NCBI GenBank assembly: GCA_964016885.1
Contig: OZ024742.1
Location: forward strand, 167,152,001 to 167,216,000
Origin: Eledone cirrhosa
Lineage: Eukaryota
Direction: 5' to 3'
Length of the DNA stretch: 64,000 bases
A program made the position numbers and the translations under genes. The notes below the pieces were generated by a model. It had not been told where the DNA came from, did no database searches, and saw only the letters and a program-made list of their open reading frames with translations. Below are positions 1 through 64,000 of the stretch, in pieces; position 1 is the first letter of the stretch, and every line of letters begins with the position of its first letter.

Positions 1-179
1 GATAAATTCCAGCCTCGAAGGGGAGATAATTTCCAGCCAGCCAAGGGGAGATAATTTGTAAAAAAAATCAGGGGGAGATAATTTGTAAAAAAAAATCAGG
101 GGGAGATAATTTGTAAAAAAAAATCAGGGGGAGATAATTTGTAAAAAAAAATCAGGGGGAGATAATTTGTAAAAAAAAT

Positions 180-369
180 CAAGGGGAGATAATTTCCAGC
201 CGTCCAAGGGGAGATAATTTTCAGCCGTCCAAGGGGAGATAATTTCCAGCCGTCCAAGGGGAGATAATTTCCATCCTTCCAAGGGGAGATAATTTCCAGC
301 CGTCCAAGGGGAGATAATTTCCCGCCAACCAAGGGAAGATAATTTTTAAAAAAATCAGGCGGAGATTGT
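180..369 (+). repeat. B-module 'Z' (example): B, TTTTCAGCC, B, CCATCCTTCC, B, CCCGCCA(G/A)CC, GGGAAGATAAT-Tn-An, CAGGCGGAG
   Basis: The same ordered variants recur at ~4074, 7430, 11197, 18897, 20763, 26610, 29419, 42809, 54906, 58913 and 62689. Confidence 0.9.
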
Positions 370-572
370 AAAAAAAATCAGGGGGAGATAATTTGTAAAA
401 AAAAAATCAGGGGGAGATAATTTGTAAAAAAAATCAGGGGGAGATAATTTGTAAAAAAAAATCAAGGGGAGATAATTTGTACAAAAAATCAGGGGTATAT
501 AATTTGTAAAAAAAAATCAGGGGGAGATAATTTGTAAAAAAAAATCAGGGGGAGATAATTTGTAAAAAAAAT

Positions 573-735
573 CAAGGGGAGATAATTTGCAGCCGTCCAA
601 GGGGAGATAATTTTCAGCCGTCCAAGGAGAGGTAATTTCTAGTCGTCCAAGGTGAGATAATATCCAGCCGTCCAAGGGGAGATAATTTCCAGCCGTCCAA
701 GGGGAGATAATTTTTAAAAAAAAACAGGCGAAGAT
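573..735 (+). repeat. B-module 'W' (example): TTTGCAGCC, TTTTCAGCC, GGAGAGGTAATTTCTAG, GGTGAGATAATATCC, B, Tn-An-CAGGCG
   Basis: Recurs at ~4467, 9460, 14880, 19289, 21155, 29812, 34761, 39224, 43202, 48758, 53171 and 60953. Confidence 0.9.
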
Positions 736-837
736 AATTTGTAAAAAAAAAATCAGGGGGAGATAATTTGTAAAAAAAAATCAGGGGGAGATAATTTGTA
801 AAAAAAAATCAGGGGGAGGTAATTTGTGAAAAAAAAT

Positions 838-966
838 CAAGGGGAGATAATTTCCAGCCGTCCAAGGGAAGATAATTTCCAGCCCTCCAAGGGGCTATAA
901 TTTCCAGCGTCCAAGGGGAGATAATTTCCAGCCAGCGAAGGGGAGATAATTTTTTTTTTTTTAAAT
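838..966 (+). repeat. B-module 'Y' (example): B, GGGAAGATAATTTC(C/A)AGCCCTC, GGGGCTATAATTTCCAG(C/T)GTC (24 bp), CCAGCCAGCGAAGG, Tn-An
   Basis: The diagnostic GGGGCTATAA and CAGCGAAGG variants recur in fixed order dozens of times, e.g. ~1880, 3536, 4732, 8528, 9724, 12874, 15144. Confidence 0.92.
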
Positions 967-2056: not shown

Positions 2057-2425
2057 CAAAGGGAGATAATTTCCAGCCGTCCAAAGAGAGATAATTTCTA
2101 GCCGTCCAAGGGGAGATAATTTCGAGCCAAGGGGAGATAATTTCCAGCCGTCCAAGGGGAGATAATTTTTTAAAAAATCAGGTGGAGATAATTTGTAAAA
2201 AAAATCAGGGGGAGATAATTTGTAAAAACAAAATCAAGGGCAGATAATTTCCAGCTGTCCAAGGGGAGATAATTTCCAGCCGTGCAAGGGGAGATAATTT
2301 CCAGCCGTCCAAGGGGAGATAATTTCCATCCTTCCAAGGGGAGATAATTTCCAGCCGTCCAAGGGGAGATAATTTCCCGCCAGCCAAGGGAAGATAATTT
2401 TTTAAAAAATCAGGCGGAGATTGTA
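2057..2425 (+). repeat. B-module 'V' plus linked Z-variant (example): AAAGGGAG..AAAGAGAG, TCTAGCC, 21-bp TTCGAGCC monomer, CAGGTGGAG, AAAACAAAATCAAGGGCAG, CTGTCC, GTGCAA, CCATCCTTCC
   Basis: Recurs at ~5950, 13052, 14093, 24072, 33974, 36708, 37722, 44685, 47971, 50704, 51718 and 56435. Confidence 0.9.
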
Positions 2426-2485
2426 AAAAAAATCAGGGGGAGATAATTTGTAAAAAAATCAGGGGGAGATAATTTGTAAAAAAAT

Positions 2486-2710: not shown

Positions 2711-2799
2711 AAGGGGAGATAATTTGTAAAAAATTCAGGGGGAGATAATTTGTAAAAAAAATCAGGGGGAGATAATTTGTAAAAAAAAATCAGGGGGAG

Positions 2800-5700
2800 A
2801 TAATTTGTAAAAAAAATCAGGGGGAGATAATTTGTAAAAAAAATCAGGGGGAGATAATTAGTAAAAAAATCAAGGGGAGATAATTTCCAGCCGTCCAAGG
2901 GGAGGTAATATCTAGCCGTCCAAGGGGAGATAATTTCCAGCCGTCCAAGGGGAGATAATTTCCAGCCGTCCAAGGGTAGATAATATCCAGCCGTCCAAGT
3001 AGACATATTTTCCAGCCGTCCAAGGAGAGGTAATTTCTAGCCGTCCAAGGGGAGATAAATTCTAGCCTCCAAGGGGAGATAATTTCCAGCCAGCCAAGGG
3101 GAGATAATTTGTAAAAAAATCAGGGGGAGATAATTTGTAAAAAAAATCAGGGGGAGATAATTTGTAAAAAAAAATCAGGGGGAGATAATTTGTAAAAAAA
3201 ATCAGGGGGAGATAATTTGTAAAAAAAAATCAGGGGGAGATAATTTGTAAAAAAAATCAAGGGGAGATAATTTCCAGCCGTCCAAGGGGAGATAATTTCC
3301 AGCCGTCCAAGGGGAGGTAATATCTAGCCGTCCAAGGGGAGATAATTTCCAGCCGTCCAAGAGGAGATAATTTCCAGCCGTCCAAGGGAAGATAATTTCA
3401 AGCCCTCCAAGGGGCTATAATTTCCAGTGTCCAAGGGGAGATAATTTCCAGCCAGCGAAGGGGAGATAATTTTTTTTTAAAAATCAGGGGGAGATTTGTA
3501 AAAAAAATCAGGGGGAGATAATTTGTAAAAAAAATCAAGGGGAGATAATTTCCAGCCGTCGAAGGGAAGATAATTTCCAGCCCTCCAAGGGGCTATAATT
3601 TCCAGCGTCCAAGGGGAGATAATTTCCAGCCAGCGAAGGGGAGATAATTTTTTTAAAAAAATCATTGGGAGATTTGTAAAAAAAATCAGGGAGAGACAAT
3701 TTGTAAAAAAAATCAAGGGGAGATAATTTCCAGCCGTCCAAGGGGAGGTAATATCTAGCCGTCCAAGGGGAGATAATTTCCAGCCGTCCAAGGGGAGATA
3801 ATTTCCAGCCGTCCAAGGGTAGATAATATCCAGCCGTCCAAGTAGACATTTTCCAGCCGTCCAAGGAGAGGTAATTTCTAGCCGTCCAAGGGGAGATAAA
3901 TTCCAGCCTCGAAGGGGAGATAATTTCCAGCCAGCCAAGGGGAGATAATTTGTAAAAAAAATCAGGGGGAGATAATTTGTAAAAAAAAATCAGGGGGAGA
4001 TAATTTGTAAAAAAAAATCAGGGGGAGATAATTTGTAAAAAAAAATCAGGGGGAGATAATTTGTAAAAAAAATCAAGGGGAGATAATTTCCAGCCGTCCA
4101 AGGGGAGATAATTTTCAGCCGTCCAAGGGGAGATAATTTCCAGCCGTCCAAGGGGAGATAATTTCCATCCTTCCAAGGGGAGATAATTTCCAGCCGTCCA
4201 AGGGGAGATAATTTCCCGCCAACCAAGGGAAGATAATTTTTAAAAAAATCAGGCGGAGATTGTAAAAAAAATCAGGGGGAGATAATTTGTAAAAAAAAAA
4301 TCAGGGGGAGATAATTTGTAAAAAAAATCAGGGGGAGATAATTTGTAAAAAAAAATCAAGGGGAGATAATTTGTACAAAAAATCAGGGGTATATAATTTG
4401 TAAAAAAAAATCAGGGGGAGATAATTTGTAAAAAAAAATCAGGGGGAGATAATTTGTAAAAAAAATCAAGGGGAGATAATTTGCAGCCGTCCAAGGGGAG
4501 ATAATTTTCAGCCGTCCAAGGAGAGGTAATTTCTAGTCGTCCAAGGTGAGATAATATCCAGCCGTCCAAGGGGAGATAATTTCCAGCCGTCCAAGGGGAG
4601 ATAATTTTTAAAAAAAAACAGGCGAAGATAATTTGTAAAAAAAAAATCAGGGGGAGATAATTTGTAAAAAAAAATCAGGGGGAGATAATTTGTAAAAAAA
4701 AATCAGGGGGAGGTAATTTGTGAAAAAAAATCAAGGGGAGATAATTTCCAGCCGTCCAAGGGAAGATAATTTCCAGCCCTCCAAGGGGCTATAATTTCCA
4801 GCGTCCAAGGGGAGATAATTTCCAGCCAGCGAAGGGGAGATAATTTTTTTTTTTTTAAATCAGGGGGAGATAATTTGTAAAAAAAAATCAGGGGGAGATA
4901 ATTTCCAGCCGTCCAAGGGGAGATAATTTTCAGCCGTCCAAGGGGAGATAATTTTCAGCCGTCCAAGGGGAGATAATTTCCCGCCAGCCAAGGAAAGATA
5001 ATATTTAAAAAAATCAGGCGGAGATAATTTGTAAAAAAAAATCAGGGGGAGATAATTTGTAAAAAAAATCAATTGGAGATAATTTCCAGCCGTCCAAGGG
5101 GAGATAATTTTCAGCCGTCCAAGGAGAGGTAATTTCTAGACGTCCAAGGGGAGATAATTTCCAGCCGTCCAAGAGGAGATAATTTCCAGCCGTCCAAGGG
5201 TAGATAATATCCAGCCGTCCAAGGAGACATATTTTCCAGCTTTCCAAGGAGAGGTAATTTCTAGCCGTCCAAGGGGAGATAAATTCCAGCCTCCAAGGGG
5301 AGATAATTTCCAGCCAGCCAAGGGGAGATAATTTGTAAAAAAATCAGGGGGAGATAATTTGTAAAAAAAAATCAGGGGCAGATAATTTGTAAAAAAAATC
5401 AGGGGGAGATAATTTGTAAAAAATATCAGGGGGAGATAATTTGTAAAAAAAATCAAGGGGAGATAATTTCCAGCCGTCCAAGGGGAGATAATTTTCAGCC
5501 GTCCAAGGGGAGATAATTTCCCGCCAGCCAAGGGAAGATAATATTTAAAAAATAAGGCGGAGATAATTTGTAAAAAAAATCAGGGGGAGATAATTTGTAA
5601 AAAAATCAGGGGGAGATAATTTGTAAAAAAAAAATCAGGGAGAGATAATTTGTAAAAAAAATCAGGGGGAGATAATTTGTAAAAAAAAATCAGGGGTAGA

Positions 5701-7592: not shown

Positions 7593-10500
7593 GCCAAGGG
7601 AAGATAATATTTTAAAAAATCAGGCGGAGATAATTTGTAAAAAAAATCAGGGGGAGATAATTTGTAAAAAAATCAGGGGGAGATAATTTGTAAAAAAAAA
7701 ATCAGGGGGAGATAATTTGTAAAAAAAATCAGGGGGAGATAATTTGTAAAAAAAAAATCAGGTGTAGATAATTTGTAAAAAAAAATCAGGGGGAGATAAT
7801 TTGTAAAAAAAAAATCAGGGGGAGATAATTTGTAAAAAAAATCAGGGGGAGATAATTTGTAAAAAAAAATCAGGGGGAGATAATTTCCAGCCGTCCAAGG
7901 GGAGATAATTTTCAGCCGTCCAAGGGGAGATAATTTCCCGCCAGCCAAGGGAAGATAATATTTAAAAAAATCAGGCGGAGATAATTTGTAAAAAAAATCA
8001 GGGGGAGATAATTTGTAAAAAAAAATCAGGGGGAGATAATTTGTAAAAAAAATCAAGGGGAGATAATTTCCAGCCGTCCAAGGAGAGATAATTTAAAAAA
8101 AAAATCAGGCGGAGATAATTTGTAAAAAAAAATCAGGGGGAGATAATTTGTAAAAAAAAATCAGGGGGAGATAATTTGTAAAAAAAATCAAGGGGAGATA
8201 ATTTCCAGCCGTCCAAGGGGAGATAATTTTCAGCCGTCCAAGGGGAGATAATTTCCAGCCGTCCAAGGGGAGATAATTTAAAAAAAAAAATCAGGCGGAG
8301 ATAATTTGTAAAAAAAATCAAGGGGAGATAATTTGCAACCGTCCAAGGGGACATAATTTTCAGTCGTCCAAGGAGAGGTAATTTCTAGCCGTCCAAGGGG
8401 AGATAATTTCCAGCCGTCCAAGGGGAGATAATTTCCAGCCGTCCAAGGGGAGATAATTTTTTTTTAAAAATCAGGCGGAGATAATTTGTAAAAAAAAAAT
8501 CAGGGGGAGATAATTTGTAAAAAAAATCAAGGGGAGATAATTTCCAGCCGTCCAAGGGAAGATAATTTCCAGCCCTCCAAGGGGCTATAATTTCCAGCGT
8601 CCAAGGGGAGATAATTTCCAGCCAGCGAAGGGGAGATAATTTTTTTAAAAAAATCATTGGGAGATTTGTAAAAAAAATCAGGGAGAGATAATTTGTAAAA
8701 AAAATCAAGGGGAGATAATTTCCAGCCGTCCAAGGGGAGGTAATATCTAGCCGTCCAAGGGGAGATAATTTCCAGCCGTCCAAGGGGAGATAATTTCCAG
8801 CCGTCCAAGGGTAGATAATATCCAGCCGTCCAAGTAGACATTTTCCAGCCGTCCAAGGAGAGGTAATTTCTAGCCGTCCAAGGGGAGATAAATTCCAGCC
8901 TCCAAGGGGAGATAATTTCCAGCCAGCCAAGGGGAGATAATTTGTAAAAAAATCAGGGGGAGATAATTTGTAAAAAAATCAGGGGGAGATAATTTGTAAA
9001 AAAAAATCAGGGGGAGATAATTTGTAAAAAAAAATCAGGGGGAGATAATTTGTAAAAAAAAATCAGGGGGAGATAATTTGTAAAAAAAATCAAGGGGAGA
9101 TAATTTCCAGCCGTCCAAGGGGAGATAATTTCCATCCTTCCAAGGGGAGATAATTTCCAGCCGTCCAAGGGGAGATAATTTCCCGCCAGCCAAGGGAAGA
9201 TAATTTTTAAAAAAATCAGGCGGAGATTGTAAAAAAAATCAGGGGGAGATAATTTGTAAAAAAATCAGGGGGAGATAATTTGTAAAAAAAAAATCAGGGG
9301 GAGACAATTTGTAAAAAAAATCAGGGGGAAATAATTTGTAAAAAAAAATCAAGGGGAGATAATTTGTACAAAAAATCAGGGGTATATAATTTGTAAAAAA
9401 AAATCAGGGGGAGATAATTTGTAAAAAAAAATCAGGGGGAGATAATTTGTAAAAAAAATCAAGGGGAGATAATTTGCAGCCGTCCAAGGGGAGATAATTT
9501 TCAGCCGTCCAAGGAGAGGTAATTTCTAGCCGTCCAAGGTGAGATAATATCCAGCCGTCCAAGGGGAGATAATTTCCAGCCGTCCAAGGGGAGATAATTT
9601 TTAAAAAAAAACAGGCGAAGATAATTTGTAAAAAAAAAATCAGGGGGAGATAATTTGTAAAAAAAAATCAGGGGGAGATAATTTGTAAAAAAAAATCAGG
9701 GGGAGGTAATTTGTAAAAAAAATCAAGGGGAGATAATTTCCAGCCGTCCAAGGGAAGATAATTTCCAGCCCTCCAAGGGGCTATAATTTCCAGCGTCCAA
9801 GGGGAGATAATTTCCAGCCAGCGAAGGGGAGATAATTGTTTTAAAAAAATCATTGGGAGATTTGTAAAAAAAATCAGGGGGAGATAATTAATAAAAAAAA
9901 TCAAGGGGAGATAATTCCAGCCGTCCAAGGGGAGGTAATATCTAGCCGTCCAAGGGGAGATAATTTCCAGCCGTCCAAGGGGAGATAATTTCCAGCCGTT
10001 CAAGGGTAGATAATATCCAGCCGTCCAAGGAGACATATTTTCCAGCCGTGCAAGGAGAGGTAATTTCTAGCCGTCCAAGGGGAGATAAATTCCAGCCTCC
10101 AAGGGGAGATAATTTCCAGCCAGCCAAGGGGAGATAATTTGTAAAAAAATCAGGGGGAGATAATTTGTAAAAAAAGTCAGGGGTAGATAATTTGTAAAAA
10201 AAAATCAGGGGGAGATAATTTGTAAAAAAAAATCAGGGGGAGATAATTTGTAAAAAAAATCAAGGGGAGATAATTTCCAGCCATCCAAGGAGAGATAATT
10301 TTTAAAAAAAATCAGGCGGAGATAATTTGTAAAAAAAAATCAGGGGGAGATAATTTGTAAAAAAAATCAGGGGGTGATAATTTGTAAAAAAAATCAAGGG
10401 GAGATAATTTCCAGCCGTCCAAGGGGAGATAATTTCCAGCCGTCCAAGGGGACATAAATTTTTTAAAAAAATCAGGCGGAGATAATTTGTAAAAAAAATC

Positions 10501-28300: not shown

Positions 28301-31300
28301 TAATTTCCAGCCGTCCAAGGGTAGATAATATCCAGCCGTCCAAGTAGACATATTTTCCAGCCGTCCAAGGAGAGGTAATTTCTAGCCGTCCAAGGGGAGA
28401 TAAATTCTAGCCTCCAAGGGGAGATAATTTCCAGCCAGCCAAGGGGAGATAATTTGTAAAAAAATCAGGGGGAGATAATTTGTAAAAAAAATCAGGGGGA
28501 GATAATTTGTAAAAAAAAATCAGGGGGAGATAATTTGTAAAAAAAATCAGGGGGAGATAATTTGTAAAAAAAAATCAGGGGGAGATAATTTGTAAAAAAA
28601 ATCAAGGGGAGATAATTTCCAGCCGTCCAAGGGGAGATAATTTCCAGCCGTCCAAGGGGAGGTAATATCTAGCCGTCCAAGGGGAGATAATTTCCAGCCG
28701 TCCAAGAGGAGATAATTTCCAGCCGTCCAAGGGAAGATAATTTCAAGCCCTCCAAGGGGCTATAATTTCCAGTGTCCAAGGGGAGATAATTTCCAGCCAG
28801 CGAAGGGGAGATAATTTTTTTTTAAAAATCAGGGGGAGATTTGTAAAAAAAATCAGGGGGAGATAATTTGTAAAAAAAATCAAGGGGAGATAATTTCCAG
28901 CCGTCGAAGGGAAGATAATTTCCAGCCCTCCAAGGGGCTATAATTTCCAGCGTCCAAGGGGAGATAATTTCCAGCCAGCGAAGGGGAGATAATTTTTTTA
29001 AAAAAATCATTGGGAGATTTGTAAAAAAAATCAGGGAGAGACAATTTGTAAAAAAAATCAAGGGGAGATAATTTCCAGCCGTCCAAGGGGAGGTAATATC
29101 TAGCCGTCCAAGGGGAGATAATTTCCAGCCGTCCAAGGGGAGATAATTTCCAGCCGTCCAAGGGTAGATAATATCCAGCCGTCCAAGTAGACATTTTCCA
29201 GCCGTCCAAGGAGAGGTAATTTCTAGCCGTCCAAGGGGAGATAAATTCCAGCCTCCAAGGGGAGATAATTTCCAGCCAGCCAAGGGGAGATAATTTGTAA
29301 AAAAAATCAGGGGGAGATAATTTGTAAAAAAAAATCAGGGGGAGATAATTTGTAAAAAAAAATCAGGGGGAGATAATTTGTAAAAAAAAATCAGGGGGAG
29401 ATAATTTGTAAAAAAAATCAAGGGGAGATAATTTCCAGCCGTCCAAGGGGAGATAATTTTCAGCCGTCCAAGGGGAGATAATTTCCAGCCGTCCAAGGGG
29501 AGATAATTTCCATCCTTCCAAGGGGAGATAATTTCCAGCCGTCCAAGGGGAGATAATTTCCCGCCAACCAAGGGAAGATAATTTTTAAAAAAATCAGGCG
29601 GAGATTGTAAAAAAAATCAGGGGGAGATAATTTGTAAAAAAAAAATCAGGGGGAGATAATTTGTAAAAAAAATCAGGGGGAGATAATTTGTAAAAAAAAA
29701 TCAAGGGGAGATAATTTGTACAAAAAATCAGGGGTATATAATTTGTAAAAAAAAATCAGGGGGAGATAATTTGTAAAAAAAAATCAGGGGGAGATAATTT
29801 GTAAAAAAAATCAAGGGGAGATAATTTGCAGCCGTCCAAGGGGAGATAATTTTCAGCCGTCCAAGGAGAGGTAATTTCTAGTCGTCCAAGGTGAGATAAT
29901 ATCCAGCCGTCCAAGGGGAGATAATTTCCAGCCGTCCAAGGGGAGATAATTTTTTAAAAAAAACAGGCGAAGATAATTTGTAAAAAAAAAATCAGGGGGA
30001 GATAATTTGTAAAAAAAAATCAGGGGGAGATAATTTGTAAAAAAAAATCAGGGGGAGGTAATTTGTGAAAAAAAATCAAGGGGAGATAATTTCCAGCCGT
30101 CCAAGGGAAGATAATTTCCAGCCCTCCAAGGGGCTATAATTTACAGCGTCCAAGGGGAGATAATTTCCAGCCAGCGAAGGGGAGATAATTTTTTTTTTTT
30201 TAAATCAGGGGGAGATAATTTGTAAAAAAAAATCAGGGGGAGATAATTTCCAGCCGTCCAAGGGGAGATAATTTTCAGCCGTCCAAGGGGAGATAATTTT
30301 CAGCCGTCCAAGGGGAGATAATTTCCCGCCAGCCAAGGAAAGATAATATTTAAAAAAATCAGGCGGAGATAATTTGTAAAAAAAAATCAGGGGGAGATAA
30401 TTTGTAAAAAAAATCAATTGGAGATAATTTCCAGCCGTCCAAGGGGAGATAATTTTCAGCCGTCCAAGGAGAGGTAATTTCTAGACGTCCAAGGGGAGAT
30501 AATTTCCAGCCGTCCAAGGGGAGATAATTTCCAGCCGTCCAAGGGTAGATAATATCCAGCCGTCCAAGGAGACATATTTTCCAGCTTTCCAAGGAGAGGT
30601 AATTTCTAGCCGTCCAAGGGGAGATAAATTCCAGCCTCCAAGGGGAGATAATTTCCAGCCAGCCAAGGGGAGATAATTTGTAAAAAAATCAGGGGGAGAT
30701 AATTTGTAAAAAAAAATCAGGGGCAGATAATTTGTAAAAAAAATCAGGGGGAGATAATTTGTAAAAAATATCAGGGGGAGATAATTTGTAAAAAAAATCA
30801 AGGGGAGATAATTTCCAGCCGTCCAAGGGGAGATAATTTTCAGCCGTCCAAGGGGAGATAATTTCCCGCCAGCCAAGGGAAGATAATATTTAAAAAATAA
30901 GGCGGAGATAATTTGTAAAAAAAATCAGGGGGAGATAATTTGTAAAAAAATCAGGGGGAGATAATTTGTAAAAAAAAATCAGGGAGAGATAATTTGTAAA
31001 AAAAATCAGGGGGAGATAATTTGTAAAAAAAAATCAGGGGTAGATAATTTGTAAAAAAAAATCAGGGGGAGATAATTTGTAAAAAAAATCAGGGGGAGAT
31101 AATTTGTAAAAAAAATCAAGGGGAGATAATTTCCAGCCGTCCAAGGGAAGATAATTTCAAGCCCTCCAAGGGGCTATAATTTCCAGTGTCCAAGGGGAGA
31201 TAATTTCCAGCCGTCCAAGGGTAGATAATATCCAGCCGTCCAAGGAGACATATTTTCCAGCCGTCCAAGGAGAGGTAATTTCTAGCCGTCCAAGTGGAGA

Positions 31301-34300: not shown

Positions 34301-37300
34301 CCAAGAGAAGATAATTTTTTAAAAAATCAGGCGGAGATTGTAAAAAAAATCAGCGGGAGATAATTTGTAAAAAAATCAGGGGGAGATAATTTGTAAAAAA
34401 ATCAAGGGGAGATAATTTCCAGCTCTCCAAGGGGAGGTAATATCTAGCCGTCCAAGGGGAGATAATTTCCAGCCGTCCAAGGGGAGATAATTTCCAGCCG
34501 TCCAAGGGTAGATAATATCCAGCCGTCCAAGGAGACATATTTTCCAGCCGTCCAAGGAGAGGTAATTTCTAGCCGTCCAAGTGGAGATAAATTCCAGCCT
34601 CCAAGGGGAGATAATTTCCAGCCAGCCAAGGGGAGATAATTTGTAAAAAAATCAGGGGGAGATAATTTGTAAAAAAAATCAGGGGGAGATAATTTGTACA
34701 AAAAATCAGGGGTAGATAATTTGTAAAAAAAATCAGGGGGAGATAATTTGTAAAAAAAATCAAGGGGAGATAATTTGCAGCCGTCCAAGGGGAGATAATT
34801 TTCAGCCGTCCAAGGAGAGGTAATTTCTAGCCGTCCAAGGTGAGATAATATCCAGCCGTCCAAGGGGAGATAATTTCCAGCCGTCCAAGGGGAGATAATT
34901 TTTAAAAAAAAACAGGCGGAGATAATTTGTAAAAAAAAAATCAGGGTGAGATAATTTGTAAAAAAAAATCAGGGGGAGATAATTTGTAAAAAAAAATCAG
35001 GGGGAGGTAATTTATAAAAAAAATCAAGGGGAGATAATTTCCAGCCGTCCAAGGGAAGATAATTTCCAGCCCTCCAAGGGGCTATAATTTCCAGCGTCCA
35101 AGGGGAGATAATTTCCAGCCAGCGAAGGGGAGATAATTTTTTTTTTTTTAAATCAGGGGGACATAATTTGTAAAAAAAATGAGGGGGAGATAATCTGTAA
35201 AAAAAATCAAGGGGAGATAATTTGTAAAAAAATCAGGGGGAGATAATTTGTAAAAAAAAATCAGGGGGAGATAATTTGTAAAAAAAATCAAGGGGAGATA
35301 ATTTGTAAAAAAAATCAAGGGGAGATAATTTCCAGCCGTCCAAGGGGAGATAATTTTCAGCCGTCCAAGGGGAGATAATTTCCCGCCAGCCAAGGGAAGA
35401 TAATATTTAAAAAAATCAGGCGGAGATAATTTGTAAAAAAAATCAGGGGGAGATAATTTGTAAAAAAATCAGGGGGAGATAATTTGTAAAAAAAAAATCA
35501 GGGGGAGATTTGTAAAAAAAATCAGGGGGAGATAATTTGTAAAAAAAAATCAGGGGTAGATAATTTGTAAAAAAAAATCAGGGGGAGATAATTTGTAAAA
35601 AAAAATCAGGGGGAGATAATTTGTAAAAAAAAATCAATTGGAGATAATTTCCAGCCGTCCAAGGGGAGATAATTTTCAGCCGTCCAAGGAGAGGTAATTT
35701 CTAGACGTCCAAGGGGAGATAATTTCCAGCCGTCCAATGGGAGATAATTTCCAGCCGTCCAAGGGGAGATAATTTTTAAAAAAAAATCAGGCGGAGATAA
35801 TTTGTAAAAAAAATCTAGGGGAGATAATTTGCAGCCGTCCAAGGGGAGATAATTTTCAGTCGTCCAAGGAGAGGTAATTTCTAGCCGTCCAAGGGGAGAT
35901 AATTTCCAGCCGTCAAAGGGGAGATAATTTCCAGCCGTCCAAGGGGAGATAATTTTTTTAAAAAAATCAGGCGGAGATAATTTGTAAAAAAAATCAGGGG
36001 GAGATAATTTGTAAAAAAAAATCAGGGGGAGATAATTTGTAAAAAAAAATCAGGGGGAGATAATTTGTAAAAAAAATCAAGGAGAGATAATTTCCAGCCG
36101 TCCAAGGGAAGATAATTTCAAGCCCTCCAAGGGGCTATAATTTCCAGTGTCCAAGGGGAGATAATTTCCAGCCAGCGAAGGGGAGATAATTTTTTTTTAA
36201 AAATCAGGGGGAGATTTGTAAAAAAAATCAAGGGGAGATAATTTGTAAAAAAATCAGGGGGAGATAATTTGTAAAAAAAAAATCAGGGGGAGATAATTTG
36301 TAAAAAAAATCAGGGGGAGATAATTTGTAAAAAAAAATCAGGGGTAGATAATTTGTAAAAAAAAATCAGGGGGAGATAATTTGTAAAAAAAAAATCAGGG
36401 GGAGATAATTTGTAAAAAAAATCAAGGGGAGATAATTTCCAGCCGTCCAAGGAGAGATAATTTTTAAAAAAAATCAGGCGGAGATAATTTGTAAAAAAAA
36501 ATCAGGGGGAGATAATTTGTAAAAAAAATCAAGGGGAGATAATTTCCAGCCGTCCAAGGGAAGATAATTTCAAGCCCTCCAAGGGGCTATAATTTCCAGT
36601 GTCCAAGGGGAGATAATTTCCAGCCAGCGAAGGGGAGATAATTTTTTTAAAAAAATCAGGGGGAGATATGTAAAAAAAATCAGAGGGAGATAATTTCTAA
36701 AAAAAATCAAAGGGAGATAATTTCCAGCCGTCCAAAGAGAGATAATTTCTAGCCGTCCAAGGGGAGATAATTTCCAGCCAAGGGGAGATAATTTCCAGCC
36801 GTCCAAAGGGGAGATAATTTTTTAAAAAATCAGGTGGAGATAATTTGTAAAAAAAATCAGGGGGAGATAATTTGTAAAAACAAAATCAAGGGCAGATAAT
36901 TTCCAGCTGTCCAAGGGGAGATAATTTCCAGCCGTGCAAGGGGAGATAATTTCCAGCCGTCCAAGGGGAGATAATTTCCATCCTTCCAAGGGGAGATAAT
37001 CTCCAGCCGTCCAAGGGGAGATAATTTCCCGCCAGCCAAGGGAAGATAATTTTTAAAAAAATCAGGCGGAGATTGTAAAAAAAATCAGGGGGAGATAATT
37101 TGTAAAAAAATCAGGGGGAGATAATTTGTAAAAAAAAAATCAGGGGAGATAATTTGTAAAAAAAAATCAGGGGGAGATAATTTGTAAAAAAAAAATCAGG
37201 GGGAGATAATTTGTAAAAAATAATCAGGGGTAGATAATTTGTAAAAAAAAATCAGGGGGAGATAATTTGTAAAAAAAAATCAGGGGGAGATAATTTGTAA

Positions 37301-40300
37301 AAAAATCAAGGGGAGATAATATGCAGCCGTCCAAGGGGAGATAATTTTCAGCCGTCCAAGGAGAGGTAATTTCTAGCCGTCCAAGGGGAGATAATTTCCA
37401 GCCGTCCAAGGGGAGATAATTTCAAGCCGTCCAAGGGGAGATAGTTTTTTTAAAAAAATCAGGCGGAGATAATTTGTAAAAAAAAAATCAGGGGGAGATA
37501 ATTTGTAAAAAAAAATCAGGGGGAGATAATTTGTAAAAAAAATCAAGGGGAGATAATTTCCAGCCGTCCAAGGGAAGATAATTTCAAGCCCTCCAAGGGG
37601 CTATAATTTCCAGTGTCCAAGGGGAGATAATTTCCAGCCAGCGAAGGGGAGATATTTTTTTTTTAAAAATCAGGGGGAGATATGTAAAAAAAATCAGAGG
37701 GAGATAATTTCTAAAAAAAATCAAAGGGAGATAATTTCCAGCCGTCCAAAGAGAGATAATTTCTAGCCGTCCAAGGGGAGATAATTTCCAGCCAAGGGGA
37801 GATAATTTCCAGCCGTCCAAGGGGAGATAATTATTTAAAAAATCAGGGGGAGATAATTTGTAAAAACAAAATCAAGGGCAGATAATTTCCAGCTGTCCAA
37901 GGGGAGATAATTTCCAGCCGTGCAAGGGGAGATAATTTCCAGCCGTCCAAGGGGAGATAATTTCCATCCTTCCAAGGGGAGATAATTTCCAGCCGTCCAA
38001 GGGGAGATAATTTCCCGCCAGCCAAGGGAAGATAATTTTTTAAAAAATCAGGCGGAGATTGTAAAAAAAATCAGGGGGAGATAATTTGTAAAAAAATCAG
38101 GGGGAGATAATTTGTAAAAAAAAAATCAGGGGAGATAATTTGTAAAAAAAAATCAGGGGGAGATAATTTGTAAAAAAAAAATCAGGGGGAGATAATTTGT
38201 AAAAAAAATCAGGGGTAGATAATTTGTAAAAAAAAATCAGGGGGAGATAATTTGTAAAAAAAAATCAGTGGGAGATAATTTGTAAAAAAATCAAGGGGAG
38301 ATAATTTCCAGCCGTCGAAGGGAAGATAATTTCCAGCCCTCCAAGGGGCTATAATTTCCAGCGTCCAAGGGGAGATAATTTCCAGCCAGCGAAGGGGAGA
38401 TAATTTTTTTTAAAAAATCATTGGGAGATTTGTAAAAAAAATCAGGGAGAGATAATTTGTAAAAAAAATCAAGGGGAGATAATTTCCAGCCGTCCAAGGG
38501 GAGGTAATATCTAGCCGTCCAAGGGGAGATAATTTCCAGCCGTCCAAGGGGAGATAATTTCCAGCCGTCCAAGGGTAGATAATATCCAGCCGTCCAAGTA
38601 GACATTTTCCAGCCGTCCAAGGAGAGGTAATTTCTAGCCGTCCAAGGGGAGATAAATTCCAGCCTCCAAGGGGAGATAATTTCCAGCCAGCCAAGGGGAG
38701 ATAATTTGTAAAAAAATCAGGGGGAGATAATTTGTAAAAAAATCAGGGGGAGATAATTTGTAAAAAAAAATCAGGGGGAGATAATTTGTAAAAAAAAATC
38801 AGGGGGAGATAATTTGTAAAAAAAAATCAGGGGGAGATAATTTGTAAAAAAAATCAAGGGGAGATAATTTCCAGCCGTCCAAGGGGAGATAATTTCCATC
38901 CTTCCAAGGGGAGATAATTTCCAGCCGTCCAAGGGGAGATAATTTCCCGCCAGCCAAGGGAAGATAATTTTTAAAAAAATCAGGCGGAGATTGTAAAAAA
39001 AATCAGGGGGAGATAATTTGTAAAAAAATCAGGGGGAGATAATTTGTAAAAAAAAAATCAGGGGGAGACAATTTGTAAAAAAAATCAGGGGGAAATAATT
39101 TGTAAAAAAAAATCAAGGGGAGATAATTTGTACAAAAAATCAGGGGTATATAATTTGTAAAAAAAAATCAGGGGGAGATAATTTGTAAAAAAAAATCAGG
39201 GGGAGATAATTTGTAAAAAAAATCAAGGGGAGATAATTTGCAGCCGTCCAAGGGGAGATAATTTTCAGCCGTCCAAGGAGAGGTAATTTCTAGCCGTCCA
39301 AGGTGAGATAATATCCAGCCGTCCAAGGGGAGATAATTTCCAGCCGTCCAAGGGGAGATAATTTTTAAAAAAAAACAGGCGAAGATAATTTGTAAAAAAA
39401 AAATCAGGGGGAGATAATTTGTAAAAAAAAATCAGGGGGAGATAATTTGTAAAAAAAAATCAGGGGGAGGTAATTTGTAAAAAAAATCAAGGGGAGATAA
39501 TTTCCAGCCGTCCAAGGGAAGATAATTTCCAGCCCTCCAAGGGGCTATAATTTCCAGCGTCCAAGGGGAGATAATTTCCAGCCAGCGAAGGGGAGATAAT
39601 TGTTTTAAAAAAATCATTGGGAGATTTGTAAAAAAAATCAGGGGGAGATAATTAATAAAAAAAGTCAAGGGGAGATAATTTCCAGCCGCCCAAGGGGAGG
39701 TAATATCTAGCCGTCCAAGGGGAGATAATTTCCAGCCGTCCAAGGGGAGATAATTTCCAGCCGTCCAAGGGTAGATAATATCCAGCCGTCCAAGGAGACA
39801 TATTTTCCAGCCGTCCAAGGAGAGGTAATTTCTAGCCGTCCAAGGGGAGATAAATTCCAGCCTCCAAGGGGAGATAATTTCCAGCCAGCCAAGGGGAGAT
39901 AATTTGTAAAAAAATCAGGGGGAGATAATTTGTAAAAAAAATCAGGGGTAGATAATTTGTAAAAAAAAATCAGGGGGAGATAATTTGTAAAAAAAAATCA
40001 GGGGGAGATAATTTGTAAAAAAAATCAAGGGGAGAAAATTTCCAGCCGTCCAAGGGGAGATAATTTTCAGCCGTCCAAGGGGAGATAATTTCCAGCCGTC
40101 CAAGGGGAGATAATTTCCATCCTTCCAAGGGGAGATAATTTCCAGCCGTCCAAGGGGAGATAATTTTCAGTCGTCCAAGGGGAGATAATTTCCCGCCAGC
40201 CAAGGGAAGATAATATTTTAAAAAATCAGGCGGAGATAATTTGTAAAAAAAATCAGGGGGAGATAATTTGTAAAAAAATCAGGGGGAGATAATTTGTAAA

Positions 40301-52300: not shown

Positions 52301-53550
52301 TTTCCAGCCGTCGAAGGGAAGATAATTTCCAGCCCTCCAAGGGGCTATAATTTCCAGCGTCCAAGGGGAGATAATTTCCAGCCAGCGAAGGGGAGATAAT
52401 TTTTTTAAAAAAATCATTGGGAGATTTGTAAAAAAAATCAGGGAGAGATAATTTGTAAAAAAAATCAAGGGGAGATAATTTCCAGCCGTCCAAGGGGAGG
52501 TAATATCTAGCCGTCCAAGGGGAGATAATTTCCAGCCGTCCAAGGGGAGATAATTTCCAGCCGTCCAAGGGTAGATAATATCCAGCCGTCCAAGTAGACA
52601 TTTTCCAGCCGTCCAAGGAGAGGTAATTTCTAGCCGTCCAAGGGGAGATAAATTCCAGCCTCCAAGGGGAGATAATTTCCAGCCAGCCAAGGGGAGATAA
52701 TTTGTAAAAAAATCAGGGGGAGATAATTTGTAAAAAAATCAGGGGGAGATAATTTGTAAAAAAAAATCAGGGGGAGATAATTTGTAAAAAAAAATCAGGG
52801 GGAGATAATTTGTAAAAAAAAATCAGGGGGAGATAATTTGTAAAAAAAATCAAGGGGAGATAATTTCCAGCCGTCCAAGGGGAGATAATTTCCATCCTTC
52901 CAAGGGGAGATAATTTCCAGCCGTCCAAGGGGAGATAATTTCCCGCCAGCCAAGGGAAGATAATTTGTAAAAAAATCAGGGGGAGATAATTTGTAAAAAA
53001 AAAATCAGGGGGAGACAATTTGTAAAAAAAATCAGGGGGAAATAATTTGTAAAAAAAAATCAAGGGGAGATAATTTGTACAAAAAATCAGGGGTATATAA
53101 TTTGTAAAAAAAAATCAGGGGGAGATAATTTGTAAAAAAAAATCAGGGGGAGATAATTTGTAAAAAAAATCAAGGGGAGATAATTTGCAGCCGTCCAAGG
53201 GGAGATAATTTTCAGCCGTCCAAGGAGAGGTAATTTCTAGCCGTCCAAGGTGAGATAATATCCAGCCGTCCAAGGGGAGATAATTTCCAGCCGTCCAAGG
53301 GGAGATAATTTTTAAAAAAAAACAGGCGAAGATAATTTGTAAAAAAAAAATCAGGGGGAGATAATTTGTAAAAAAAAATCAGGGGGAGATAATTTGTAAA
53401 AAAAAATCAGGGGGAGGTAATTTGTAAAAAAAATCAAGGGGAGATAATTTCCAGCCGTCCAAGGGAAGATAATTTCCAGCCCTCCAAGGGGCTATAATTT
53501 CCAGCGTCCAAGGGGAGATAATTTCCAGCCAGCGAAGGGGAGATAATTGT
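25390..53550 (+). repeat. Large higher-order tandem duplication, two ~14 kb copies (~25.4-39.5 kb and ~39.5-53.5 kb) differing by internal indels
   Basis: ORF offsets: 25608/39707 = 14099; 26863/40279 = 13416; 28822/42212 = 13390; 31526/45523 through 35606/49603 = 13997; 36570/50566 through 38291/52287 = 13996; 39432/53379 = 13947. Confidence 0.92.
36500..38290 (+). repeat. Local ~1 kb diverged tandem repeat unit (also ~12.85-14.5 kb and ~50.5-52.3 kb)
   Basis: ORF pairs 36570/37584 (1014), 36857/37843 (986), 13201/14241 (1040) and 50566/51580 (1014). Module order is Y, V, Z-variant, A-run, W-variant. Confidence 0.82.
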
Positions 53551-59500: not shown

Positions 59501-62500
59501 ATAATTTGTAAAAAAAAATCAGGGGGAGATAATTTGTAAAAAAAATCAAGGGGAGATAATTTCCAGCCGTCCAAGGAGAGATAATTTAAAAAAAAAATCA
59601 GGCGGAGATAATTTGTAAAAAAAAATCAGGGGGAGATAATTTGTAAAAAAAAATCAGGGGGAGATAATTTGTAAAAAAAATCAAGGGGAGATAATTTCCA
59701 GCCGTCCAAGGGGAGATAATTTTCAGCCGTCCAAGGGGAGATAATTTCCAGCCGTCCAAGGGGAGATAATTTTAAAAAAAAAATCAGGCGGAGATAATTT
59801 GTAAAAAAAATCAAGGGGAGATAATTTGCAACCGTCCAAGGGGACATAATTTTCAGTCGTCCAAGGAGAGGTAATTTCTAGCCGTCCAAGGGGAGATAAT
59901 TTCCAGCCGTCCAAGGGGAGATAATTTCCAGCCGTCCAAGGGGAGATAATTTTTTTTTAAAAATCAGGCGGAGATAATTTGTAAAAAAAAAATCAGGGGG
60001 AGATAATTTGTAAAAAAAATCAAGGGGAGATAATTTCCAGCCGTCCAAGGGAAGATAATTTCCAGCCCTCCAAGGGGCTATAATTTCCAGCGTCCAAGGG
60101 GAGATAATTTCCAGCCAGCGAAGGGGAGATAATTTTTTTAAAAAAATCATTGGGAGATTTGTAAAAAAAATCAGGGAGAGATAATTTGTAAAAAAAATCA
60201 AGGGGAGATAATTTCCAGCCGTCCAAGGGGAGGTAATATCTAGCCGTCCAAGGGGAGATAATTTCCAGCCGTCCAAGGGGAGATAATTTCCAGCCGTCCA
60301 AGGGTAGATAATATCCAGCCGTCCAAGTAGACATTTTCCAGCCGTCCAAGGAGAGGTAATTTCTAGCCGTCCAAGGGGAGATAAATTCCAGCCTCCAAGG
60401 GGAGATAATTTCCAGCCAGCCAAGGGGAGATAATTTGTAAAAAAATCAGGGGGAGATAATTTGTAAAAAAATCAGGGGGAGATAATTTGTAAAAAAAAAT
60501 CAGGGGGAGATAATTTGTAAAAAAAAATCAGGGGGAGATAATTTGTAAAAAAAAATCAGGGGGAGATAATTTGTAAAAAAAATCAAGGGGAGATAATTTC
60601 CAGCCGTCCAAGGGGAGATAATTTCCATCCTTCCAAGGGGAGATAATTTCCAGCCGTCCAAGGGGAGATAATTTCCCGCCAGCCAAGGGAAGATAATTTT
60701 TAAAAAAATCAGGCGGAGATTGTAAAAAAAATCAGGGGGAGATAATTTGTAAAAAAATCAGGGGGAGATAATTTGTAAAAAAAAAATCAGGGGGAGACAA
60801 TTTGTAAAAAAAATCAGGGGGAAATAATTTGTAAAAAAAAATCAAGGGGAGATAATTTGTACAAAAAATCAGGGGTATATAATTTGTAAAAAAAAATCAG
60901 GGGGAGATAATTTGTAAAAAAAAATCAGGGGGAGATAATTTGTAAAAAAAATCAAGGGGAGATAATTTGCAGCCGTCCAAGGGGAGATAATTTTCAGCCG
61001 TCCAAGGAGAGGTAATTTCTAGCCGTCCAAGGTGAGATAATATCCAGCCGTCCAAGGGGAGATAATTTCCAGCCGTCCAAGGGGAGATAATTTTTAAAAA
61101 AAAACAGGCGAAGATAATTTGTAAAAAAAAAATCAGGGGGAGATAATTTGTAAAAAAAAATCAGGGGGAGATAATTTGTAAAAAAAAATCAGGGGGAGGT
61201 AATTTGTAAAAAAAATCAAGGGGAGATAATTTCCAGCCGTCCAAGGGAAGATAATTTCCAGCCCTCCAAGGGGCTATAATTTCCAGCGTCCAAGGGGAGA
61301 TAATTTCCAGCCAGCGAAGGGGAGATAATTGTTTTAAAAAAATCATTGGGAGATTTGTAAAAAAAATCAGGGGGAGATAATTAATAAAAAAAATCAAGGG
61401 GAGATAATTCCAGCCGTCCAAGGGGAGGTAATATCTAGCCGTCCAAGGGGAGATAATTTCCAGCCGTCCAAGGGGAGATAATTTCCAGCCGTTCAAGGGT
61501 AGATAATATCCAGCCGTCCAAGGAGACATATTTTCCAGCCGTGCAAGGAGAGGTAATTTCTAGCCGTCCAAGGGGAGATAAATTCCAGCCTCCAAGGGGA
61601 GATAATTTCCAGCCAGCCAAGGGGAGATAATTTGTAAAAAAATCAGGGGGAGATAATTTGTAAAAAAAGTCAGGGGTAGATAATTTGTAAAAAAAAATCA
61701 GGGGGAGATAATTTGTAAAAAAAAATCAGGGGGAGATAATTTGTAAAAAAAATCAAGGGGAGATAATTTCCAGCCATCCAAGGAGAGATAATTTTAAAAA
61801 AAAATCAGGCGGAGATAATTTGTAAAAAAAAATCAGGGGGAGATAATTTGTAAAAAAAATCAGGGGGTGATAATTTGTAAAAAAAATCAAGGGGAGATAA
61901 TTTCCAGCCGTCCAAGGGGAGATAATTTCCAGCCGTCCAAGGGGACATAAATTTTTTAAAAAAATCAGGCTGAGATAATTTGTAAAAAAAATCAGGGGGA
62001 GATAAATTGTAAAAAAAAATCAGGGGGAGATAATTTGTAAAAAAAATCAGGGGGAGATAATTTCCAGCCGTCCAAGGTAAGATAATTTCCAGCCCTCCAA
62101 GGGGCTATAATTTCCAGCATCCAAGGGGAGATAATTTCCAGCCGTCCAAGGGTAGATAATATCCAGCCGTCCAAGTAGACATATTTTCCAGCCGTCCAAG
62201 GAGAGGTAATTTCTAGCCGTCCAAGGGGAGATAAATTCCAGCCTCCAAGGGGAGATAATTTCCAGCCAGCCAAGGGGAGATAATTTGTAAAAAAATCAGG
62301 GGGAGATAATTTGTAAAAAAAATCAGGGGGAGATAATTTGTAAAAAAAAATCAGGGGGAGATAATTTGTAAAAAAAAATCAGGGGGAGATAATTTCCAGC
62401 CGTCCAAGGGGAGATAATTTTCAGCCGTCCAAGGGTAGATAATATCCAGCCGTCCAAGTAGACATTTTCCAGCCGTCCAAGGAGAGGTAATTTCTAGCCG

Positions 62501-62970
62501 TCCAAGGGGAGATAAATTCCAGCCTCCAAGGGGAGATAATTTCCAGCCAGCCAAGGGGAGATAATTTGTAAAAAAATCAGGGGGAGATAATTTGTAAAAA
62601 AAATCAGGGGGAGATAATTTGTAAAAAAAAATCAGGGGGAGATAATTTGTAAAAAAAAATCAGGGGGAGATAATTTGTAAAAAAAAATCAAGGGGAGATA
62701 ATTTCCAGCCGTCCAAGGGGAGATAATTTTCAGCCGTCCAAGGGGAGATAATTTCCAGCCGTCCAAGGGGAGATAATTTCCATCCTTCCAAGGGGAGATA
62801 ATTTCCAGCCTTCCAAGGGGAGATAATTTTCAGCCGTCCAAGGGGAGATAATTTCCCGCCAGCCAAGGGAAGATAATATTTTAAAAAATCAGGCGGAGAT
62901 AATTTGTAAAAAAAATCAGGGGGAGATAATTTGTAAAAAAATCAGGGGGAGATAATTTGTAAAAAAAAAA
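52330..62970 (+). repeat. Higher-order repeat, period ~7.78 kb (~52.3-55.2 kb repeated at ~60.1-63.0 kb; third copy at ~8.6-11.5 kb)
   Basis: ORF pairs 53379/61161, 53653/61435, 54210/61992 and 54569/62351 all have offset 7782; 9668/53379 has offset 43711. Shared variants GATAATTCCAG, CCGTTCAAG, AAAAGTCAGG and GGGGGTGATAA. Confidence 0.9.
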
Positions 62971-64000
62971 TCAGGGGGAGATAATTTGTAAAAAAAATCA
63001 GGGGGAGATAATTTGTAAAAAAAAATCAGGGGTAGATAATTTGTAAAAAAAAATCAGGGGGAGATAATTTGTAAAAAAAAAATCAGGGGGAGATAATTTG
63101 TAAAAAAAATCAAGGGGAGATAATTTCCAGCCGTCCAAGGAGAGATAATTTTTAAAAAAAATCAGGCGGAGATAATTTGTAAAAAAAAATCAGGGGGAGA
63201 TAATTTCCAGCCGTCGAAGGGAAGATAATTTCCAGCCCTCCAAGGGGCTATAATTTCCAGCGTCCAAGGGGAGATAATTTCCAGCCAGCGAAGGGGAGAT
63301 AATTTTTTTAAAAAAATCATTGGGAGATTTGTAAAAAAAATCAGGGGGAGATAATTTGTAAAAAAAATCAAGGGGAGATAATTTCCAGCCGTCCAAGGGG
63401 AGGTAATATCTAGCCGTCCAAGGGGAGATAATTTCCAGCCGTCCAAGGGGAGATAATTTCCAGCCGTCCAAGGGTAGATAATATCCAGCCGTCCAAGTAG
63501 ACATTTTCCAGCCGTCCAAGGAGAGGTAATTTCTAGCCGTCCAAGGGGAGATAAATTCCAGCCTCCAAGGGGAGATAATTTCCAGCCAGCCAAGGGGAGA
63601 TAATTTGTAAAAAAATCAGGGGGAGATAATTTGTAAAAAAAATCAGGGGGAGATAATTTGTAAAAAAAAATCAGGGGGAGATAATTTGTAAAAAAAAATC
63701 AGGGGGAGATAATTTGTAAAAAAAAATCAGGGGGAGATAATTTGTAAAAAAAATCAAGGGGAGATAATTTCCAGCCGTCCAAGGGGAGATAATTTTCAGC
63801 CGTCCAAGGGGAGATAATTTCCAGCCGTCCAAGGGGAGATAATTTCCATCCTTCCAAGGGGAGATAATTTGTAAAAAAAAATCAGGGGGAGATAATTTGT
63901 AAAAAAAAATCAAGGGGAGATAATTTCCAGCCGTCCAAGGGGAGATAATTTTCAGCCGTCCAAGGGGAGATAATTTCCCGCCAGCCAAGGGAAGATAATA
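55190..64000 (+). repeat. Long-range copy of ~4.7-12.5 kb (offset 50,484-50,485, then 51,493 after a 1,008-bp indel)
   Basis: ORF pairs 4860/55344 (50484) and 6098/56583 (50485); 6818/58311, 7364/58857, 8385/59878, 9668/61161, 10858/62351 and 12178/63671 all have offset 51493. Confidence 0.93.

What the first reader, a model, noticed from the sequence alone, without database searches (positions are those of the whole stretch)
1..64000. Two-letter satellite: one conserved 16-bp core with two alternative tails
Seen: nearly every monomer starts CA(A/G)GGGGAGATAATTT and continues with either GT(A)7-10T (type A) or CCAGCCGTC (type B). The tails are unrelated in sequence and composition, yet the core and the ~25-28 bp spacing are kept. 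The result is alternating AT-rich and GC-rich patches of about 50-250 bp. Inference: a shared core on two different tails suggests either a constrained protein-binding box, analogous to the CENP-B box in alpha satellite or the conserved boxes shared between Meloidogyne satellite families, or a recombination handle that lets A and B intermix. I do not recognise this family, so it may be undescribed.
Basis: partly seen in the sequence, partly recalled or inferred. Interest (0 to 1): 0.75.

Follow-up and report, generated by a model that had tools for sequence, protein, structure and literature searches.

The report
Layered two-tail satellite of a cephalopod
This is a real, very abundant satellite repeat in a cephalopod genome whose shared 16-base core mutates as fast as its GC-rich tail, and older repeat layers at the edge of the array show that the two-tail pattern likely arose by joining a GC-rich repeat to AT-rich DNA and then copying those joints, not from a protected protein-binding box.

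Summary
The pattern is real: 2,465 monomers (1,207 A, 1,258 B) fill the window, part of a 2.0-Mb array and an estimated 17-19 Mb family in a 3-Gb cephalopod genome. But only 58% of monomers have the exact core, and the core is not constrained: with base class controlled it carries 1.22 times (95% CI 1.01-1.47) the tail's mutation events. A/B joints are mostly inherited (154 of 154 CAGC-ending B precede A); core crossovers explain about 7% of A>B joints. The array's gap-free edge preserves older layers: a 1-kb unit with a 19-mer inside an (AATTT)n tract, then B' blocks with a 300-bp AT-rich spacer starting exactly where the A tail starts, then A/B. The module hosting the 19-mer lies elsewhere without the core, often beside interstitial telomere-type repeats. 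So the core is likely shared by descent, with AATT as a passive joint. Arrays are mid-chromosome on the four giant chromosomes and C21; a centromeric role is untested. No description found in the papers searched; this scan noted the same layering on another piece (e1-10328835). New member of a known kind.

The parts
1..64000 (+). Interior of a 2.03-Mb A/B satellite array (G000:C3:165.860-167.893 Mb); 2,465 monomers in 249 B blocks alternating with A blocks; mean B+A unit 258 bp (sd 100)
2871..3094 (+). Example 9-monomer B block with an ordered series of variants, ending in the CAGC junction variant
   Evidence: sequence, decomposition, block grammar
3095..3257 (+). Example 6-monomer A block; first monomer has the B-type head (CAA), the rest the A-type head (CAG)
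   Evidence: sequence
2107..2127 (+). 21-bp monomer with a CGAGC tail, the tail of the oldest 19-mer layer (8 such sites in the window); relic or independent deletion
   Evidence: older layer
4889..4913 (+). Chimeric monomer, A-type head on a B tail: product of exchange within the core (22 copies in the window)
7937..7978 (+). Inherited B>A joint: CAGC-ending last B, T-type first A (no G in the tail), then a diagnostic second A
31101..39185 (+). 8.1-kb segment duplicated at 45,099-53,187 with 99.4% identity (offset 14.0 kb): kilobase-scale copying that carries joints along

Best explanation
This is a young, non-coding composite satellite whose core mutates as fast as its B tail and is likely shared by descent, because the A monomer likely formed when a B-type repeat was joined at its AATT tract to AT-rich DNA, and the few resulting joints were then likely copied by kilobase-scale duplication. 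Steps: (1, shown) a dispersed module (palindromic TGCGCATGCGC repeats, a 33-bp repeat, AT microsatellites) exists without the core; (2, shown as sequence, order inferred) a 19-bp minisatellite sits inside its (AATTT)n tract in a 1-kb unit; (3, inferred) a deletion between two TTT tracts removed the palindrome, and the 19-mer became the 25-bp B', giving B' blocks plus a 300-bp AT-rich spacer; (4, inferred) the spacer was replaced by, or collapsed into, a 10-bp T/A tail, making the first A monomer, which then multiplied locally; (5, shown) A/B blocks were amplified by duplications of 1.5-8 kb with occasional register shifts inside the core. It most likely acts as mid-chromosome heterochromatin, probably pericentromeric, without a sequence-specific box.
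For: Core versus tail: 522 single-step mutation events in 6,799 B and B' monomers; core/tail ratio 1.22 (1.01-1.47) with base class fitted, G/C sites 2.3 times A/T sites; rare-versus-common test p=0.63 and 0.48 (first sample, p=0.85). Inherited joints: 154 of 154 CAGC-ending 25-mers precede A (permutation mean 30, max 51 of 10,000), 552 of 552 in 33 stretches; first A is T-type in 674 of 892 joints against 12 of 3,765 inner A; the naive crossover product (commonest B then commonest A tail) is 4 of 892. Layers: gap-free 5' edge of this array runs 19-mer unit, then about 10 kb B'/spacer, then A/B in register; B'/spacer also at the 5' edge and inside the C1 array. All 27 spacers extracted start right after core position 16 (the pattern used required this), the position where the A tail starts. 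B' layer is more diverse (154 distinct of 486 against about 79 rarefied). The module has no core in 10 of 10 other loci fetched. 8.1-kb duplicate at 99.4%.
Against: Copy-weighted mismatch in young B is lower in the core than the tail (0.044 against 0.094; 0.065 without tail positions 23-24), though reversed in B' (0.076 against 0.062). The first 14 core bases did persist through three monomer types while every length change fell 3' of them. Event counts saturate, are ambiguous in the G run and left 97 variants unattached. The donor of the A tail is not settled: the spacer and a neighbouring (CCATT(T)A5-9T)n satellite both fit, both low in complexity, and no true intermediate was found (3 hits; one is a layer boundary and two are lone copies inside A/B arrays). 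Layer order comes from position and diversity in one assembly, with no outgroup.
Confidence: 0.7

Rival explanations
1. The A/B arrays are the functional centromeres of the giant, probably fused chromosomes, with the older layers as dead flanks, and the alternation of GC-rich and AT-rich blocks is kept by selection on chromatin structure rather than on sequence. Compatible with the best explanation's origin story.
For: Megabase, homogeneous arrays at 43-65% of C1-C4 and at 50% of C21; older, more diverse layers at edges; A:B near 1:1 in all five array groups and no pure A or pure young-B array in the stretches sampled; run lengths under-dispersed (A variance 5.5 against 18.8 geometric); GC/AT alternation in all three layers.
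Against: No hit on C5-C20 or C22-C26 among 95 fully listed rare-variant matches (few independent events); C4 has two arrays 41 Mb apart; unit length is loose (129-420 bp); other megabase satellites share these regions; under-dispersion also follows from descent from a few units; no chromatin data.
Confidence: 0.25
2. The core is a constrained protein-binding box, as the first reader proposed (it contains a GATA-type AGATAA; motif name recalled).
For: The first 14 bases are common to the 19-mer, B', B and A; young-B copy-weighted mismatch is half that of the tail.
Against: No deficit of mutation events in the core (ratio 1.22) or in AGATAA (0.91, 0.71-1.17); 16% of window monomers lack an intact AGATAA and 40% the 13-bp core; common variants with 2-4 core changes were amplified; no 9-of-9 CENP-B site, best match to the Meloidogyne box 11 of 19.
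Confidence: 0.08
3. A and B are two once separate satellites that are continually intermixed by crossover in the shared core.
For: 67 of 901 A>B joints are head/tail chimeras, 18 of 47 in the C2 plus array, with several entry points; layer boundaries are in register.
Against: Most joints carry fixed junction variants on both sides; 0 of 895 B>A and only 7% of A>B joints show the other head; no pure A array seen in any stretch fetched.
Confidence: 0.1
4. The fine mosaic is an assembly artefact.
For: Several array edges are 200-N gaps; 7.7 kb at C3:168.76 Mb is 100% identical to C3:163.26 Mb, a possible false duplication.
Against: No N in the window; ordered variant blocks recur on five chromosomes; both ends of this array are gap-free; variants spread in local clusters as in real arrays.
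Confidence: 0.02

Closest known systems
Meloidogyne chitwoodi/fallax satellite library with Box 1 and Box 2 (PMC3694981; passages read)
   Same: Unlike monomers share a short segment, and transitions between monomer types fall in it; Box 2 is a homopolymer-rich joint proposed for illegitimate recombination.
   Different: There Box 1 is 17 bp kept among monomers only 32% alike and resembles the CENP-B box; here the core is 60% of the monomer, is not more conserved than the tail, and lacks that resemblance.
Meloidogyne incognita CenH3-bound repeats with a 19-bp box (PMC8097292; passages read)
   Same: Short monomers of different types in mosaic arrays around one shared segment.
   Different: That box is completely conserved, GC-rich, dyad-forming, shared across species and ChIP-validated; this core is variable, folds no better than shuffles and has no chromatin data.
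Layered primate alpha satellite, including SF5 irregular R1/R2 alternation (PMC4496801; passages read)
   Same: Homogeneous young array flanked by older, more diverse layers; irregular alternation of two monomer types.
   Different: 25-28 bp against 170 bp; types differ by a replaced tail, not by a binding box; relic layers seen at one end only; no fixed higher-order unit; centromere function untested.
Tribolium madens intermingled major/minor satellites and satellite-microsatellite composites (PMC13081366; passages read)
   Same: Two related repeats intermingled over megabases with a few conserved transition types.
   Different: Blocks there are kilobases with frequent inversions; here 25-300 bp and one orientation over megabases.
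Satellites born from repeats inside mobile elements: Tetris (PMC4079207) and oyster Helentrons (PMC7492417); abstracts only
   Same: A short internal tandem repeat of a modular, dispersed repeat expands into long arrays.
   Different: No terminal repeats, target duplications or transposase were shown for the host module; it often abuts degenerate telomere-type arrays.
Bovine 1.706 'patchwork' satellite of 23-bp motifs (recalled; search found no paper on it)
   Same: Short related motifs arranged as a patchwork of blocks.
   Different: Unrelated sequence and lineage; not checked here.

Membership tests
Satellite DNA (long tandem non-coding array) | Head-to-tail monomers over very long arrays, high copy number | tested here: met
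   2,465 monomers in 64 kb; 385,057 exact cores genome-wide; 2.03-Mb array
CENP-B-box satellites | 17-bp box with nine essential bases | tested here: not met
   No site with 9 of 9 on either strand; one with 8, seven with 7 (the nine-base pattern is recalled)
Conserved-box satellites (Meloidogyne type) | Box more conserved than the rest of the monomer | tested here: not met
   Core/tail event ratio 1.22 (1.01-1.47); searches likewise
Conserved-box satellites (Meloidogyne type) | Monomer-type transitions fall in the shared segment | tested here: met
   B>A, B'>spacer and head/tail chimeras all switch in or at the end of the core; the usual A>B joint lies just before it
Conserved-box satellites (Meloidogyne type) | Box conserved across species | not tested
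Conserved-box satellites (Meloidogyne type) | Association with CenH3/CENP-A chromatin | not testable with these tools
   No ChIP or CUT&Tag data
Layered centromeric satellite (alpha-satellite type) | Young homogeneous array flanked by older, more diverse related layers | tested here: met
   5' edges of the C3 plus and C1 arrays; absent at the gap-free 3' edge of the C3 plus array, the 5' edge of C2 minus and of C21
Layered centromeric satellite (alpha-satellite type) | Fixed higher-order repeat unit | tested here: not met
   73 distinct B blocks of 249; duplicate offsets of 11.7-54 kb with no constant period
Layered centromeric satellite (alpha-satellite type) | One array at the centromere of each chromosome | tested here: inconclusive
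   Found on C1-C4, C21 and unplaced contigs; none on other large contigs among 95 listed rare-variant hits; centromere positions unknown
Transposon-derived satellite (Tetris/Helentron type) | Monomer occurs as an internal repeat of a mobile element with defined ends | tested here: inconclusive
   The 19-mer occurs inside a dispersed module at 2 loci; 10 of 10 other module loci lack it; no element ends or transposase frame recognised

The most novel reading that the evidence does not exclude
This is the first cephalopod centromeric satellite: it was born inside a telomere-associated repeat left at old fusion points, took over the middle of the four giant chromosomes, and kept an alternation of GC-rich and AT-rich blocks through three complete turnovers of sequence because the alternation itself, not any motif, is what chromatin selects.
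Probability: 0.15. Interest if true: 0.75.

Novelty: new member of a known kind. Interest (0 to 1): 0.4.

Why it matters
It gives an unusually complete record, in one array, of how a two-monomer satellite with a shared core can arise with no selected box, a caution for reading shared motifs as binding sites. It also supplies a mapped candidate for (peri)centromeric DNA in cephalopods, for which my searches found no described centromeric satellite, and a direct test (CENP-A mapping, FISH) of whether satellites seeded at telomere-type relics mark the giant chromosomes' centromeres.

Tried and rejected
Literature: the 13-bp core on either strand is in 0 papers; topic searches on octopus or cephalopod satellites, centromeres and interstitial telomeric repeats listed nothing on such a repeat; two cephalopod genome papers have 0 occurrences of centromer, satellite, tandem repeat or telomer in the main text (supplements not seen); some searches gave only general leads. 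Most subscription papers, Dfam and Repbase were not searchable, so 'undescribed' is limited to these searches. Rfam: 0 hits at gathering scores in 8 flank loci; two weak microRNA-hairpin hits far below threshold on the palindrome, taken as chance hairpin matches. Folding: three stretches fold no better than shuffles (z 0.6-1.2); no canonical short-loop G-quadruplex motif. Mirror-image arrays as fusion scars: set aside, since the C3 minus 5' edge, C2 plus 5' edge, C4 plus 5' edge and the C1 and C3 minus 3' edges are scaffold gaps. The flank shared by the small C1:231.58 copy and C4 proved a common interspersed repeat. The 9-bp AT satellite as donor of the G-type A tail: 0 matches in 7 stretches. 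Present-day subtelomeres: no module or core array in 20 contig ends, 5 of which reach telomere repeats, 3 with sub-telomeric DNA in view. Nucleosome-length period: B+A unit too variable. Searches had script faults (a save error, a spacer pattern that matched nothing) corrected. The sequence look-up of earlier findings returned only unrelated notes.
Full report
Setting. The window is G000:C3:167,152,001-167,216,000 in a 3.0-Gb genome with four giant contigs of 443, 416, 379 and 379 Mb, the next being 135 Mb. The genome has 39 matches to the molluscan hemocyanin domain; one unit scores 650-659 bits against PDB chains 4yd9_C, 1js8_A and unit 8 of 6r83, and at most 507 among the other per-unit scores shown. 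That those chains are from squid and octopus is recalled. The host is therefore a cephalopod, likely an octopod (flanking repeats look octopod from recall only).

Observation. Viterbi decomposition gives 2,465 monomers, 1,207 A and 1,258 B, 195 distinct strings. A blocks (median 111 bp) are 27% GC, B blocks (median 100 bp) 50%; a B+A unit averages 258 bp, 5-95% range 129-420. There is no fixed higher-order unit: 73 distinct B blocks among 249, and long duplicates at offsets of 11.7-54 kb, one being 8.1 kb at 99.4%.

Extent. 385,057 exact cores and 54,774 BB 41-mers, scaled by window density (1,430 and 185 per 64 kb), give 17-19 Mb, about 0.6% of the genome. Sampling placed arrays at C1:251.19-252.21 Mb (minus), C2:245.7-248.28 (minus) and 248.50-250.44 (plus), C3:162.70-165.65 (minus), 165.86-167.89 (plus, holding the window) and about 168.76-169.10 (minus), C4:205.7-206.4 (minus) and from 247.35 (plus), C21:17.54 to at least 17.65 of 35.4 Mb, and unplaced C123 (2.9 Mb) and C1453. 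Only the first 100 places of a pattern are listed, so the map rests on two fully listed rare-variant searches (36 and 59 hits) and point samples; it is incomplete.

Is the core constrained? Each distinct 25-bp variant was attached to a commoner variant one step away. In the first sample (4,051 B monomers, 182 events, 22 unattached) core and tail gave 6.7 and 8.3 events per site (p=0.14); G/C sites 11.0 against 9.4, A/T sites 4.1 against 4.5. Pooled (5,921 B and 878 B' monomers, 522 events, 97 unattached), a Poisson model gives G/C sites 2.3 times A/T sites and core 1.22 times tail (1.01-1.47); AGATAA 0.91 (0.71-1.17); rare and common variants split alike (p=0.63, 0.48). Against this, copy-weighted mismatch in young B is 0.044 in the core and 0.094 in the tail, partly from the junction variant at tail positions 23-24 (0.065 without them), and it reverses in B' (0.076, 0.062). 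In A, inner monomers show about 0.023 mismatch per core site and about 0.009 substitutions per tail site. The 19-mer layer gives 0.052 and 0.068 on 65 copies.

Are joints remade in the core? Mostly not. All 154 CAGC-ending 25-mers in the window precede an A (permutation mean 30, maximum 51), 552 of 552 in 33 stretches. The first A of a block is T-type in 674 of 892 joints, against 12 of 3,765 inner A; the commonest B followed by the commonest A tail occurs 4 times, in one context. A>B joints keep the B head in 93%; 67 of 901 have an A head on a B tail, entering B blocks at about nine points (my reading). Four B>A classes make up 782 of 892 joints and can be derived from one another by shifts in the core. 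Core exchange is real but rare and then amplified.

Older layers. A core search showed a 28-unit B' array (tail CCAGCCGGC) at C1:231.58 Mb, and B' then mapped to domains of the C1 array. There, 4-36 B' monomers alternate with an AT-rich spacer (98-367 bp, 14% GC) that begins after core position 16. B' is about twice as diverse as young B at equal sample size. The window's own array has a gap-free 5' edge: three 1-kb units, then about 10 kb of B'/spacer, then A/B in register. Each 1-kb unit is 4-17 copies of a 19-mer (first 14 core bases plus CGAGC) set inside an (AATTT)n tract, followed by CCCGGAAAT repeats, a TGCGCATGCGC-rich palindrome and the spacer sequence. The last 19-mer core runs into the (AATTT)n tract, which supplies the TT that completes the 16-bp core; deleting from there to the TTT before the spacer sequence gives the B'/spacer joint; and the first B' after a spacer often still has a CGAGC tail. 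These steps are inferred from the sequences. The 19-mer occurs at only one other place, C2:192.18 Mb (21 hits in all).

Host module. The palindrome is a dispersed family (598 candidates, 40 scored). Ten other loci fetched have the palindrome but no core, and 7 of the 10 (two are duplicates of each other) abut degenerate TTAGGG arrays of 24-97 repeats per kb, against 45 in 136 kb of background. It is not in the 20 contig ends examined. So the satellite's parent is a repeat associated with interstitial telomere-type DNA; whether these are fusion relics is untested.

Origin of the A tail. Two donors fit. The spacer starts at the same position, contains a T-run/A-run step, and is often preceded by an AGC-ending monomer (16 of 43 against 49 of 878 overall), like the last B before A. 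A neighbouring satellite, (CCATT(T)A5-9T)n at C3:168.4-168.6 and C2:245.5 Mb, matches the T-type tail plus the next C at 49-56 motifs per kb, against 6 in 86 kb of flank on both strands. Both are low in complexity and no intermediate was found. Of seven gap-free joins to foreign DNA that I counted by eye, four fall at core positions 12-16, for example the 3' end of this array into a (CCTAAAATT)n satellite; that is suggestive of microhomology at the only AT-rich tract of B, but post hoc.

Function. Megabase homogeneous arrays in mid-chromosome among other satellites point to heterochromatin. Centromere status is open: the family was not seen on most smaller chromosomes, C4 has two distant arrays, and the apparent mirror arrangement on C2 and C3 crosses scaffold gaps. 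The one feature that neutral descent may not fully explain is that every array sampled keeps A and B near 1:1 in short blocks, and that GC/AT alternation is present in all three layers.

Comparison and verdict. It resembles the Meloidogyne mosaics in having joints at a shared segment (PMC3694981, PMC8097292, passages) but fails their defining test of a conserved box; it resembles alpha satellite in layering (PMC4496801, passages) and Tribolium in conserved transitions (PMC13081366, passages). PMC12692304 (passages) and PMC13652916 (abstract) were read as background. I found no description of the sequence in the searches listed. An earlier unreviewed note of this scan on another piece (e1-10328835), seen after my layers were mapped, reads what appears to be the same family the same way; it is not independent evidence. 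Verdict: real, apparently undescribed, mechanistically ordinary; new member of a known kind; interest 0.4.

Noticed in passing
G000:C8:30.88 and 31.03 Mb, C13:26.36 and 26.39, C14:23.92, C3:150.93, C4:101.47-101.49 (L169-L180): Palindromic TGCGCATGCGC module directly beside kilobases of degenerate interstitial TTAGGG repeats; at C8, C13 and C14 it lies between telomere-like tracts that point toward it, near mid-chromosome: possible fusion scars or a telomere-repeat-bearing element.
   Followed up: partly
first A monomers of blocks, e.g. window 7946-7970: In T-type junction monomers the T run and the following A run trade length (T3A10 to T13A3; Spearman -0.96 over 19 classes), keeping the monomer near 26-30 bp; unexplained, perhaps boundary sliding in a self-complementary T/A tract.
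   Followed up: partly
G000:C3:168.76 Mb versus 163.26 Mb (L076, L080): 7,723 bases 100% identical 5.5 Mb apart: very recent duplication or false duplication in the assembly.
   Followed up: partly
G000:C3:167.9 and 162.65 Mb, C21:17.54 Mb (L014, L055, L153): A 9-bp AT-rich satellite, (AATTTTAGG)n, loosely telomere-like, abuts A/B arrays; the joins at C3:167.893 and C21:17.542 are gap-free and fall at AATT.
   Followed up: partly
G000:C2:192.175-192.178 Mb (L150, L151): About 3.5 copies of the 1-kb unit sit in sequence that looks like an LTR-retrotransposon coding region (by eye); one copy shows a separate deletion from a 19-mer straight into the spacer.
   Followed up: partly
G000:C1:231.580 Mb (L021:4830-5530): Isolated 28-unit B' array starting with the end of a spacer and ending inside the core: a fragment copied out of the old layer 20 Mb away from the nearest array.
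   Followed up: yes
L103, beyond the 5' edge of the C1 array: A 16-base match to the core end plus spacer start occurs within a small palindrome in the flanking dispersed repeat.
   Followed up: no
G000:C1:173.75-173.91 Mb and C26:21.93-22.02 Mb: Two hemocyanin gene clusters; the C26 pair is inverted.
   Followed up: no
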